Assembly: GCA_001789695.1 (NCBI GenBank)
Contig: MGAI01000035.1
Location: forward strand, 2,274-66,273
DNA: 64,000 nucleotides
Reading direction: 5' to 3'
DNA from: Candidatus Roizmanbacteria bacterium RIFCSPLOWO2_01_FULL_37_16
GTDB lineage: Bacteria > Patescibacteriota > Microgenomatia > UBA1406 > GWC2-37-13
Part shown: piece by piece, positions 7,309-8,785 of the stretch
Position numbering within the stretch: position 1 is the stretch's first letter
Layout: each line of letters begins with the position of its first letter
The notes under the pieces: generated by a model
Seen by the model: the letters and a program-made list of their open reading frames with translations, nothing else
Database searches by the model: none
Told to the model about the DNA's origin: nothing
Translations under genes and position numbers: made by a program

Positions 7309-8679
7309 ATGAGCGAAGGGAAAATCATTTCAGTTAGAGGAGTGGTTGTGGATATCCAGTTTCCCGAAGATCAGACTCCTAAAATTTACGATGCCTTGGT
7401 AATTCAAGATAAAAAATTGGGTAAATTGGTTCTTGAGGTTGAGGCTATCGTTTCACCTGGGCGCGTCAGGGCAGTAGCGATGTCAAATACCTTCGGATTA
7501 AAAAGAGGCATGAGCATAGCCAATACTGGTAAATTTATTGAGGTTCCGGTTGGTGAAGAAACATTGGGTAGGATTTTTAATGTTCTGGGCGAATTAATTG
7601 ACGAGGGTGGGGAAATTAAGTTCAAGAAATTTATGCCGATTCACAATCCTTCACCTAAGCTTAAAGATCAGTCAGTTAAAAAGGAAATTTTTGAAACCGG
7701 AATTAAAGTAATAGATCTAATTGCACCTTTTATTAAAGGTGGAAAAGTCGCAGTCTTTGGTGGAGCGGGTGTTGGTAAAACTGTTTTAATTCAAGAGCTG
7801 ATTCACAATGTAGCTACAGCCCATAAGGGTGTATCAGTTTTTACTGGCGTAGGAGAGAGGTCGAGGGAAGGGAATGATCTTTGGCTTGAGATGAAAGAAA
7901 CAAAAGTATTAGATAAAACCACACTTGTTTTTGGACAGATGAATGAACCTCCAGGCAATCGTTTACGGGTTGCCTTATCCGGAGTAACCATGGCAGAATA
8001 TTTCCGTGATGTAAAAGGAATGGATACACTTCTTTTTATCGATAACATCTTTAGGTTTGCCCAAGCAGGATCTGAGGTATCTGCGCTTTTAGGAAGAATT
8101 CCATCAGCCGTTGGTTACCAGCCGACTTTGGCTTCTGAGATGGCTGCACTCCAGGAAAGGATCACCTCGACCAGCAAAGGATCAATAACTTCAATTCAAG
8201 CAGTATATGTTCCAGCTGACGACTATACAGATCCAGCACCTGTTTCAACTTTTGCCCATCTTGATGCTTCAATTACTCTTGAACGATCATTAGCAGAGCA
8301 GGCACTTTATCCCGCTATCGATCCTTTAACTTCAAGCTCACGTTCACTAGATTCAGATGTTGTAGGTGAGGAACACTATCAAGTGGCAAGAGAAGTTTTA
8401 CGAACTTTGCAAAGATATAAAGATCTTCAGGATATTATTGCAATTTTGGGTATGGAAGAACTTTCCGATGAAGATAAGTTGACAGTGGCTAGAGCCAGAA
8501 AAATTCAGAAATTTTTGACACAGCCGATGTTTGTAGCCGAACCTTTTACGGCCCGGCCAGGTAAATACGTTAAAATAGAAGATACGGTTCGCGGTTTCAA
8601 AGAGATTCTTGAGGGAAAGCAGGATGATAAATCCGAAAATTCATTTTATATGGTAGGAGGAATTGAGGAGGTAAAGTGA
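7309..8679 (+). CDS. atpD: F0F1 ATP synthase subunit beta
   Basis: Walker A GGAGVGKT, plus DNIFRF and the DELSEED-like MEELSDEDK. Confidence 0.95.
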
Positions 8680-8698
8680 CTCACATAATTCAATAAAT

Positions 8699-8779
8699 TG
8701 TGAGTCACCCCCGGGAGCTAAACGACGAGAGATCCCGTTACAATAAATTCAGATGCTGAAACGAGTTCAGGATGACAAT
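8699..8779 (+). repeat. GC-rich intergenic element, copy 1 (atpD-atpC spacer)
   Basis: TGTGAGTCAC...GGGAGCTAAACGACGAG...CTGAAACgagTTCAGGATGACAAT. About 75-80% identical by eye to the reverse complement of 53978-54085. It is preceded by a perfect 10-bp hairpin GTGACTCACA/TGTGAGTCAC (8675-8708) that includes the atpD stop. Confidence 0.6.
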
Positions 8780-8785
8780 ACTAAT

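What the first reader, a model, noticed from the sequence alone, without database searches (positions are those of the whole stretch)
8675..8785. GC-rich ~80-nt element shared, in the same transcriptional orientation, by the atp and infC-rpmI operons
The sequence 8699-8779 in the atpD-atpC spacer (plus strand) aligns with the reverse complement of 53978-54085 in the infC-rpmI spacer (minus-strand operon). Shared blocks include:
- TGTG..TCA(C/T)C;
- (G/A)GGAGCTAAACGACGAG, 16/17 identical;
- ATCCC.TTACAAT;
- CTGAAAC;
- TTCAGGATGACAA.

Overall identity is about 75-80% by eye. Both copies sit between two genes of an operon and point the same way relative to transcription. This argues for function at the RNA level, such as a processing site, a stabiliser or a protein-binding site, rather than a random MITE. 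Terminal inverted repeats (TGTCATC/GATGACA) would also fit a MITE.

In a genome this AT-rich, the GC-rich conserved core stands out. Copy 1 is what creates the spurious N-terminal extension of atpC.
Basis: seen in the sequence. Interest (0 to 1): 0.6.

Follow-up and report, generated by a model that had tools for sequence, protein, structure and literature searches.

The report
Nuclease-linked DNA hairpin repeat in operon spacers
The two look-alike stretches are real, but they are copies of a known, very widespread kind of selfish DNA hairpin repeat (the kind recognised by small Ssn nucleases) that has landed right behind two stop codons. They are not a dedicated RNA control element of the atp and infC operons.

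Summary
Window 8676-8777 (+) and 54109-53981 (-) are homologous (77% column identity). Each fills the gap between a stop codon and the next start codon.

Each copy is a composite of three parts:
- P1, a locus-specific hairpin that contains the upstream TGA stop.
- A GTCAY-headed hairpin, GAGGAGC-NNNN-CGACGAG, ending in ATC-CC.
- A conserved linker followed by an inverted GTCAT-CCTGAA...TTCAGG-ATC hairpin.

These are CGTC-tagged REP / NTS-SRM type hairpins, the repeats tied to Ssn GIY-YIG single-strand DNA nucleases.
- The genome holds about 77 such hairpins in about 52 elements. They lie in both orientations; 14 elements sit inside ORFs, most clearly as in-frame insertions such as the one in TrmD.
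- The common hairpin occurs in 30 of 61 related genomes (2-94 copies each).
- It flanks small GIY-YIG genes on both sides in 9 of 30 loci in related genomes, and one such gene in this genome by eye.
- No sister species has the element in the atpD-atpC spacer.
- No Rfam family matches.

Two points stay open. The infC-rpmI copy is shared by three species and is far better conserved than silent codon positions. P1 hairpins sit only on stop-codon sides (15 of 16).

Verdict: a new member of a known kind, and no RNA role is shown.

The parts
8677..8679 (+). atpD stop codon (TGA), inside the 5' arm of hairpin P1
   Evidence: ORF 7309..8679. atpD ends at the same ...EEVK codon in six sister species.
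8676..8708 (+). Copy 1, P1 hairpin: GTGACTCACA - loop TAATTCAATAAAT - TGTGAGTCAC. The 3' arm overlaps the head of the next hairpin.
   Evidence: Predicted in the MFE fold. Stem pairs covary among 7 copies. Coordinates.
8704..8734 (+). Copy 1, left SRM-type hairpin of the 'GA' subtype: GTCAC-CCCCGGGAGC-TAAA-CGACGAGAG-ATC. It is a degenerate copy of GTCATCCCGAGGAGCNNNNCGACGAGGGATC.
   Evidence: The same 31-mer carries the GTCAT head in many phyla.
8735..8749 (+). Copy 1, tail plus linker CCGTTACAATAAATT. The family consensus is ATC-CCNTTA(C)AAT..ATCAGAT.
   Evidence: Compared with other dimers and with the infC-rpmI orthologues.
8750..8777 (-). Copy 1, right SRM-type hairpin in inverted orientation. 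On the minus strand it reads TGTCAT-CCTGAA-CTCGT-TTCAGC-ATC-TG, with one C.C mismatch in the stem.
   Evidence: Member of the 25-nt family GTCATNCYGAA-N5-TTCRGNATC, which has 52 copies in the genome.
8786..9193 (+). atpC, true start at ATG 8786. The ATG at 8753 lies inside the right hairpin and gives the repeat-encoded peptide MLKRVQDD.
   Evidence: Orthologue alignment. A public gene call of 135 aa. The same peptide frame appears in in-frame insertions.
54106..54108 (-). infC stop codon (TGA), inside the 5' arm of hairpin P1 of copy 2
   Evidence: ORF 54106..54639 on the minus strand. Same codon position in all 7 species; TGA where the element is present and TAA where it is absent.
54077..54109 (-). 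Copy 2, P1 hairpin: GTGACACAT - loop - ATGTGTCAT
54051..54081 (-). Copy 2, left SRM-type hairpin ('GA' subtype): GTCATCTCGAGGAGCTAAACGACGAGGAATC
54033..54050 (-). Copy 2, tail plus linker CCTTTACAATTTAATCAT
   Evidence: Near-identical in the orthologous elements of G003 and G004.
53981..54032 (+). Copy 2, right SRM-type hairpin (its forward sense is on the plus strand). The loop is expanded by a nested 21-nt hairpin at 54000-54020 (GCTATAGTCCTGAGCGATAGC as read on the minus strand).
   Evidence: The same expanded variant occurs at 5 or more other loci in the genome. It is absent from the orthologous elements in G003 and G004.
53970..53972 (-). rpmI start codon, 8 nt after the end of the element

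Best explanation
Each copy is a non-coding DNA repeat element. It is a heterodimer of two hairpin motifs in inverted orientation with their heads pointing outward. It belongs to the CGTC-tagged REP / NTS-SRM class, whose partner proteins are small Ssn-type GIY-YIG nucleases specific for single-stranded DNA.

Shown here:
- The hairpins share the class's fixed frame: an unpaired YGTC head, a stem starting A-T, an ATC-Y/CC tail, and paired units of two different stem types.
- They are abundant and lie in both orientations in this genome and, patchily, across its order.
- They sit behind stop codons, in short spacers, or in frame inside proteins.
- They bracket small GIY-YIG genes in this genome and its relatives.

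Inferred:
- When the DNA is single-stranded, each hairpin folds and is bound by a cognate Ssn-like nuclease, which nicks a few bases 5' of the head, as shown for Neisseria SsnA.
- The repeats spread or are homogenised by a nuclease- or recombination-dependent route that is still undefined.
- Copies survive only where they do no harm.
- The likeness between the atp and infC loci therefore reflects common descent of repeat copies, not a shared regulatory job.
- The element is co-transcribed passively with the operon. Any effect of its hairpins on mRNA stability or on translation of the downstream gene would be a by-product.

The extra P1 hairpin bridges the upstream stop codon and the left head. 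Its origin is not resolved.
For: Anatomy and class:
- The anatomy matches NTS, CGTCATTCCCGCGMAVGCGGGAATCYRG (PMC11893778).
- It also matches the CGTC-REP definition: TGTC variant head, 8-9 bp stem starting AT, 4-5 nt loop, CCA-like tail, heterodimers, and position within 20 bp of the upstream ORF's 3' end (PMC3733652).

Abundance:
- There are 52 strict copies of GTCATNCYGAA-N5-TTCRGNATC in the genome. The reversed-pattern control and ten Markov-shuffled genomes each give 0.
- About 77 credible hairpins form 52 elements. 22 of them are inward-facing pairs and none are outward-facing.

No link to transcription:
- The junction types occupied (23 tandem, 6 convergent, 7 divergent) mirror the genome's 724:181:174.
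- Single hairpins are 8 sense and 6 antisense.
- 14 elements lie inside ORFs, for example in TrmD.

Nuclease link:
- The genome has 5 single-domain GIY-YIG ORFs of 74-92 aa.
- By eye, C10:25212-25487 lies between hairpin pairs, although the strict hairpin filter scored that locus as unflanked. C14:9-221 is directly preceded by GTCATCCTGAATTTATTTCAGGATC.
- In relatives, 9 of 30 such genes are flanked on both sides in the + / - arrangement. One of these carries GTCATTCCCGCGAAGGCGGGAATC, which fits the Neisseria NTS consensus.

Empty sites:
- The atpD-atpC spacer is 5-8 nt in G006 and G007 and lacks the element in all 6 sister species.
- The infC-rpmI spacer is 5 nt in G001.

Turnover at a fixed site:
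- The G000 infC-rpmI copy carries a nested insert not seen in its G003 and G004 orthologues. The G003 orthologue has a different left-hairpin subtype.

Other points:
- The GC-rich core 31-mer recurs with its unsearched GTCAT head in at least 66 of the roughly 120 loci returned from many phyla.
- No Rfam family matches, even at E<=10.
- There is no terminator-like site.
Against: - The published degenerate SRM search pattern does not hit these hairpins: 4 hits against 0-5 in shuffled genomes.
- The left hairpin is not a clean Watson-Crick palindrome. It needs tandem G.A pairs, and copy 1 is further degenerate.
- Membership of the GIY-YIG proteins in the Ssn clade (cd10448) could not be tested. 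The best PDB hit is a UPF0213 protein.
- No mobility event, target duplication or presence/absence polymorphism was seen. Three public assemblies are identical over the element.
- The orthologous infC-rpmI elements are 65-78% identical, while infC third codon positions are only 38-42% identical. Something keeps the sequence: either function or concerted evolution.
- P1 hairpins are strongly polarised toward upstream stop codons: 15 of 16, and 0 of 39 sides facing a gene start. This would also fit a transcript-level or translation-level role.
Confidence: 0.8

Rival explanations
1. The composite acts mainly as RNA. It would be a co-transcribed intercistronic structure (P1 plus two hairpins). By sequestering the upstream stop codon and placing AGGA 12-15 nt before the next start, it would set mRNA processing or stability, or translational coupling, of atpC and rpmI. 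It could be an exapted repeat.
For: - Four of five core-type copies are in sense orientation, with the upstream TGA in P1.
- P1 stems covary: 7 of 10 pairs have changes on both sides, and 0 of 500 shuffles reach the observed score.
- The fold z-scores are -3.4 and -2.2 on the sense strand.
- The infC-rpmI element is kept in 3 of 7 species at 65-78% identity, against 38-42% at silent positions.
- Other repeat families do affect transcripts, such as Correia with RNase III and ERIC with RNase E (PMC10969869).
Against: - The antisense strands fold about as well (z = -2.3 and -2.0), as expected for DNA palindromes, so covariation cannot separate an RNA role from a single-stranded DNA role.
- Family-wide there is no orientation bias, and there are intragenic copies.
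- One core copy is antisense.
- The atp copy is unique to this species.
- There is no Rfam match.
- Hairpin subtypes are swapped at the orthologous site, which is unexpected for a specific RNA ligand.
Confidence: 0.12
2. The elements are classical REP/REPIN sequences mobilised by the RAYT-like (IS200/IS605 Y1) transposases encoded in the genome.
For: - Three ORFs with a Y1_Tnp (PF01797) domain are present.
- The elements form REPIN-like inverted doublets.
Against: - The Y1 genes are flanked by a different hairpin, TTACACCTnnnAGGTGTAA, not by GTCAT hairpins.
- The heads are YGTC, not GTAG.
- GTCAT hairpins flank GIY-YIG genes instead.
Confidence: 0.04
3. The similarity is chance or low-complexity resemblance between two AT-rich spacers.
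For: None beyond the small size of the elements.
Against: - There is an exact shared 16-mer and 77% identity over more than 100 nt.
- Dozens of further family members exist.
- Controls give zero hits.
Confidence: 0.01

Closest known systems
NTS / Ssn-related motifs (SRM) with SsnA-type GIY-YIG ssDNA nucleases (Chenal et al. 2025, Nat Commun 16:2388, PMC11893778)
   Same: - The hairpins have a GTCAT head, a hairpin, and an ATC-Y tail.
- They are directional and number tens to hundreds per genome.
- The hairpin - small GIY-YIG gene - hairpin arrangement is present here and in relatives.
- One sister genome carries a hairpin that fits the NTS consensus.
   Different: - The stems are AT-richer (CCTGAA/TTCAGG) or are the G.A-rich GAGGAGC..CGACGAG type, and they escape the published SRM search pattern.
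- 14 of 52 elements lie inside ORFs, against 2% of NTS inside genes in N. meningitidis.
- An extra hairpin (P1) bridges the stop codon and the head.
- There is no biochemical evidence for this lineage.
CGTC-tagged REP superfamily, families CGTC-1 to CGTC-4, including Neisseria dRS3 and Rickettsia RPE-4 and RPE-6 (Di Nocera, De Gregorio, Rocco 2013, PMC3733652)
   Same: - A TGTC/CGTC tag.
- An 8-bp stem starting AT, and a 5-nt loop.
- A CC(A)-type tail.
- Mostly inverted heterodimers with conserved spacers.
- Position just downstream of ORF 3' ends, with occasional in-frame intragenic copies.
   Different: - That survey found the class in five phyla, not in this small-genome lineage.
- The 'GA' core hairpin and the P1 module are not among its four families, as far as the text read here shows.
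Rickettsia palindromic elements (RPE) inserted in frame in protein genes
   Same: Other members of the same family in this genome are read through in frame inside TrmD, glycosyltransferases and other proteins.
   Different: The two copies under review are intercistronic and are not translated. The classic RPE-1 is longer, at about 150 bp.
GTAG REP / BIME / REPIN with RAYT transposases
   Same: - Short palindromic units paired in inverted orientation.
- Extragenic bias.
- Possible side effects on mRNA.
   Different: - The head motif is different.
- The RAYT-like genes here are flanked by another hairpin.

Membership tests
CGTC-tagged REP superfamily | Unpaired CGTC (or TGTC/CCTC) tag at one end of the palindrome | tested here: met
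   TGTC heads on copy 2 left, on both right hairpins and on most of the 77 genome copies. Copy 1 left has AGTC.
CGTC-tagged REP superfamily | Stem of 8-9 bp beginning with complementary A-T pairs, loop of 4-5 nt, short CCA-like tail | tested here: met
   Right hairpins: ATCCTGAA / TTCAGGAT with a 5-nt loop (copy 2 loop expanded by a nested insert). Tails are CCG, CCT or CCA after the left hairpin. The left 'GA' hairpin meets only the AT + CCC/GGG part.
CGTC-tagged REP superfamily | Mostly inverted dimers, often heterodimers; close to the 3' end of the upstream ORF | tested here: met
   22 inward-facing pairs and 0 outward-facing; partners in the dimers listed usually have different stem types. 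Of the sides facing a stop, half of the heads lie within 10 nt.
NTS/SRM - Ssn system | Sequence fits the published degenerate SRM pattern HGTCWYN(0-2)YYVSBRHN(0-5)WNVSBRGN(0-2)RNCYNB | tested here: not met
   None of the window's four hairpins fits, nor does the generic family member. There are 4 genome hits against 0-5 in Markov shuffles. The NTS control fits.
NTS/SRM - Ssn system | Hairpins flank genes for single-domain GIY-YIG proteins of about 90 aa on both sides | tested here: met
   Own genome, by eye: C10 gene between hairpin pairs (the strict filter scored it unflanked) and C14 gene preceded by a hairpin. Relatives: 9 of 30 loci flanked on both sides and 3 on one side.
NTS/SRM - Ssn system | Partner protein belongs to the Ssn clade (CDD cd10448) | not testable with these tools
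   Only Pfam GIY-YIG (E 1e-11 to 1e-16) and a weak PDB hit to UPF0213 BH0048. CDD is not available.
NTS/SRM - Ssn system | Hairpin is bound, and cut a few nt upstream, as ssDNA only | not testable with these tools
   This is a biochemical test. It has been shown only for the Neisseria and Wolbachia proteins.
GTAG REP / REPIN - RAYT | GTAG head; RAYT gene flanked by the same repeats | tested here: not met
   There is no GTAG head. The three Y1_Tnp ORFs are flanked by TTACACCT..AGGTGTAA hairpins.
Curated structured RNA family (Rfam 15) | Match to a covariance model | tested here: not met
   Nothing at gathering score. Only chance-level miRNA and snoRNA hits at E<=10.
Operon-specific cis-regulatory RNA | Conserved at the orthologous position and in one orientation relative to transcription | tested here: inconclusive
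   atpD-atpC: 1 of 7 species. infC-rpmI: 3 of 7 species, well conserved. Family-wide orientation is unbiased, but the P1-bearing subset is 15 of 16 in sense orientation.
IS-derived MITE | Terminal inverted repeats plus direct target-site duplication | tested here: inconclusive
   The TGTCAT/ATGACA ends are present. No direct duplication was evident at the two copies or in the flanks inspected. This was not analysed systematically.

The most novel reading that the evidence does not exclude
The P1 module is a distinct, undescribed accessory of Ssn-type hairpin dimers. It is a hairpin with a semi-conserved loop (~ATAATTCAATAAT) and a locus-specific stem whose base, RTGAC...GTCAY, pairs the upstream gene's stop codon with the head of the repeat.

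Its strict placement suggests one of two things:
- a docking or insertion step that copies or uses the sequence at TGA(C) stop codons; or
- selection to bury the nuclease's cutting zone and the stop codon in a duplex.

The placement is 15 of 16 on stop-facing sides, none on start-facing sides, and infC ends in TGA only where the element is present.

Together with the strong conservation of the infC-rpmI copy, this could mean that some copies have become functional gene-end or intercistronic structures.
Probability: 0.2. Interest if true: 0.5.

Novelty: new member of a known kind. Interest (0 to 1): 0.25.

Why it matters
- For annotation, it explains away a tempting 'shared operon RNA motif'.
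- It also explains a spurious atpC N-terminal extension.
- It shows that the published SRM search pattern misses the AT-rich and G.A-rich hairpin variants of small-genome bacteria, so surveys based on that pattern undercount the Ssn repeat system.
- The stop-codon-bridging hairpin and the in-frame copies give concrete material for asking how these nuclease-linked repeats choose their sites and persist. That question is still open for the whole class.

Tried and rejected
- Rfam at gathering and at E<=10 on both copies gave nothing meaningful.
- A known ribozyme or ribosomal-protein leader was considered from the conserved GGAGCUAAACGACGAG block and dropped, because no model matches and the block is a pan-bacterial DNA repeat.
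- RAYT/REPIN: Y1 transposase genes exist but are flanked by another hairpin.
- The published SRM regex does not capture these hairpins.
- A tRNA or tmRNA near the C57 and C4 copies: none found.
- An intrinsic terminator or promoter inside copy 1: none found.
- The hairpins of the tRNA-Leu GIY-YIG cassette at window 13407-13839 have different sequences and are not this family.
- Ssn-like genes next to the 'GA' core hairpin in other phyla: only 1 of about 120 loci had any hit, and none was within 600 nt. This says nothing either way for dispersed copies.
- Literature search by sequence strings returned only unrelated primer matches.
- The organism's name was not established. An identical atpD-element-atpC stretch is in GCA_001789895.1.
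Full report
**Observation**

The two stretches are real and homologous.
- Copy 1 lies between the atpD stop (TGA 8677-8679) and the atpC start (8786). Copy 2, on the minus strand, lies between the infC stop (54106-54108) and the rpmI start (53972-53970).
- MAFFT gives 77% column identity. Copy 2 has an extra block of about 25 nt.
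- The 16-mer GGAGCTAAACGACGAG occurs exactly twice in the window, against 0.25 expected even with three mismatches allowed.
- Only the 31-nt core is GC-rich: 65% against 36% for the genome.
- No Rfam family matches at gathering score or at E<=10.

**Anatomy**

A search of the whole 1.14-Mb assembly shows that the 'element' is modular.
- The 3' part, CAGATGCTGAAACGAGTTCAGGATGACA, is the reverse complement of a 25-nt hairpin, GTCAT-N-CYGAA-N5-TTCRG-N-ATC.
  - That hairpin has 52 strict copies in the genome, 18 forward and 34 reverse. A reversed-pattern control gives none, and ten Markov-shuffled genomes give none.
- Typical copies are inverted pairs with their heads outward: TGTCAT-hairpin-ATCTG, spacer, CAGAT-hairpin-ATGACA.
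  - In the dimers listed the two partners usually carry different stem types (CC/GG, GC/GC, TCCG/CGGA and others). They therefore fold as two hairpins rather than one long one.
- The GC-rich core, GTCAY-CCCGAGGAGC-NNNN-CGACGAGGG-ATC-CC, has the same head and tail but a different interior.
  - I read that interior as C-G pairs interrupted by tandem G.A pairs. This reading is my inference.
- Upstream of the core lies P1, a 9-10-bp hairpin. Its 5' arm contains the upstream stop codon, and its 3' arm overlaps the GTCAY head.

Each copy is therefore P1, then a left hairpin, then a CCNTTACAAT linker, then an inverted right hairpin.

In copy 2 the right hairpin's loop holds a nested 21-nt hairpin. 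The same expanded variant occurs at five or more other loci.

**What family this is**

A note from an earlier agent on this genome pointed me to the Ssn literature.
- Chenal et al. 2025 define the Neisseria NTS as CGTCATTCCCGCGMAVGCGGGAATCYRG. They show that the 94-aa GIY-YIG protein SsnA binds it only as single-stranded DNA and cuts a few nucleotides upstream. SsnA does not act on RNA or duplex DNA, and ssn genes are typically flanked by such 'SRM' hairpins.
- Di Nocera et al. 2013 had classified the same hairpins as CGTC-tagged REPs. Their definition:
  - a CGTC or TGTC tag;
  - an 8-9-bp stem starting with A-T pairs;
  - a 4-5-nt loop and a CCA-like tail;
  - mostly inverted heterodimers with conserved spacers;
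  - position within 20 bp of the upstream ORF's 3' end, and sometimes inside genes.
  - The class includes Neisseria dRS3 and Rickettsia RPE-4 and RPE-6.
- The window's hairpins fit that description point by point.

The nuclease link holds here as well.
- The genome has five single-domain GIY-YIG ORFs of 74-92 aa.
- By eye, one (C10:25212-25487) sits between hairpin pairs, although the strict filter used scored that locus as unflanked. Another (C14) is directly preceded by GTCATCCTGAATTTATTTCAGGATC.
- Among 30 homologous loci in related genomes, 9 are flanked on both sides in the expected + / - arrangement and 3 on one side. One hairpin, GTCATTCCCGCGAAGGCGGGAATC, fits the Neisseria NTS consensus.

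Two membership caveats remain.
- The published degenerate SRM pattern does not match these AT-richer or G.A-rich stems: 4 hits, which is chance level.
- I could not test whether the proteins fall in CDD cd10448. The best PDB relative is a UPF0213 protein.

**Tests of the RNA-element reading**

- About 77 credible hairpins form 52 elements.
- The junction types they occupy (23 tandem, 6 convergent, 7 divergent) mirror the genome's own 724:181:174.
- 14 elements lie inside ORFs.
- Single hairpins in same-direction junctions are 8 sense and 6 antisense.

Of the five copies of the core subtype:
- three are in operon spacers in sense orientation (atpD-atpC, infC-rpmI, rpsB-tsf);
- one follows mraY at a convergent junction with ftsK;
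- one, in the map-infA spacer, is antisense.

The core subtype is confined to this genome and one of seven congeners. It is absent from 53 genomes of the family and order. The common hairpin occurs in 30 of 61 relatives, at 2-94 copies each.

Orthologous spacers give the clearest answer.
- None of six sister species has the element between atpD and atpC. Two have spacers of only 5-8 nt, and others carry unrelated palindromes.
- Folding does not favour the sense strand. The z-scores are -3.4 and -2.2 for sense, and -2.3 and -2.0 for antisense.
- There is no terminator-like site.

**What still speaks for some function**

- The infC-rpmI spacer carries the same composite in G004 and G003. On a five-protein tree these two fall in the same five-species clade as this genome, and G003 is its sister.
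- The three elements are 65-78% identical, while infC third codon positions are only 38-42% identical. The sequence is therefore held in place in some way.
- Two facts favour concerted evolution or replacement within the repeat family over a fixed RNA ligand. G003's left hairpin is a different subtype (CCCGAA), and this genome's right hairpin carries a nested insert that the G003 and G004 orthologues lack. Selection is not excluded.

**The P1 hairpin**

P1 is the one feature I could not explain.
- In 15 of 16 cases its outer arm lies on or over the stop codon of a gene reading into it.
- It occurs on none of 39 element sides that face a gene start.
- Its stems are locus-specific but complementary. 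In seven copies, 7 of 10 pairs change on both sides, and 0 of 500 shuffles reach the observed score.
- Its loop is semi-conserved across loci and in sister genome G003, where 4-5 of 7 P1 hairpins also sit at stops.
- infC ends in TGA in the three element-bearing species and in TAA in the four without the element.
- Because these are DNA palindromes, covariation cannot distinguish an RNA role from a single-stranded-DNA role.

**Wider context**

- The core 31-mer is not a lineage invention. At least 66 of the roughly 120 loci returned carry the full hairpin including the GTCAT head, which was not part of the search pattern. They come from Acidobacteriota, Gemmatimonadota, Chloroflexota, Proteobacteria, Bacteroidota, Firmicutes and other phyla.
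- Its usual loop region, GCGNAGC, is the 'mini-hairpin DNA' motif known for extreme stability as DNA (PMC13037366). That fits a DNA-level structure. The window's two copies have TAAA at that position instead.
- Family members inserted in frame recall the Rickettsia palindromic elements. One example is TrmD, which carries different hairpin subtypes at the same codon in at least three species of the genus.
- Earlier notes of this scan report the same class, including in-frame copies and stop-codon placement, in many other genomes. I treat these as agreement, not as evidence.

**Verdict**

The RNA-motif interpretation is not supported, and the MITE-like alternative is essentially right. The elements are new members of the CGTC-REP / NTS-SRM hairpin class linked to Ssn-type nucleases.

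Noticed in passing
G000 C18:11227-12060 (outside the window); loci L180-L183: TrmD carries a hairpin dimer in frame (VIPNLLVPRSPKDEVGFRDLSSKKQMLKRVQHD). Two sister species have different hairpin subtypes at the same codon (VILEGAKRP...LQND and VILSKAKDL...PQND), and a third (G003) has a shorter, degenerate insert there. About a dozen other ORFs (ArnT-like glycosyltransferases, a GT2, a SpoU methylase, a FemAB-like protein) hold family members in frame.
   Followed up: partly
loci L016-L135 (genome-contig scan): The 31-mer GTCATYCCGAGGAGCGNAGCGACGAGGRATC is nearly invariant across many bacterial phyla. It is often followed by an inverted partner, GATYCCTCGCTNNGCTCGGRATGAC. Its centre, GCGNAGC, is the ultra-stable DNA mini-hairpin motif. 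It does not fit the published SRM search pattern by hand check.
   Followed up: partly
G000 C5:2918-3602, C7:24563-25232, C57 ~24319-24552 (outside the window): Three RAYT-like Y1 transposase ORFs (223-251 aa) are each bracketed by a different hairpin, TTACACCTnnnAGGTGTAA. This looks like a second, independent hairpin-plus-enzyme system in the same genome.
   Followed up: no
window 54000-54020 (minus strand) and G000 C6, C21, C41, C52, C57: A 21-nt hairpin, GCTATAGTCCTGAGCGATAGC, sits nested in the loop of at least six family hairpins. It behaves like a mini-insertion into hairpin loops.
   Followed up: no
loci L137, L138, L144, L147 (sister-species atpD-atpC and infC-rpmI spacers): In sister species the same two spacers are filled by unrelated AT-rich palindromic repeats (for example GTTAAC-based or AATCCGAAAT-based). 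These stop-to-start gaps appear to be general landing sites for hairpin repeats in this genus.
   Followed up: no
locus L148 (G002 infC-rpmI spacer) and L139 (G002 atpD-atpC spacer): G002 has almost none of these hairpins (2 copies). Its short spacers resemble the 5' arm and loop of P1 (TAACAAACATAATACATTT). They may be remnants of deleted elements.
   Followed up: no
window 2335-2426: A GC-rich island upstream of the atp operon ends in CTTGCGGGATCCC, which resembles the tail of the core hairpin. It lacks a GTCAT head and may be a degenerate or loop-expanded relative.
   Followed up: no
window 8753-8785; locus L208: At least one public gene call starts atpC at the ATG inside the right hairpin (146 aa). 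This propagates a repeat-encoded N-terminal extension, MLKRVQDDNTN.
   Followed up: yes
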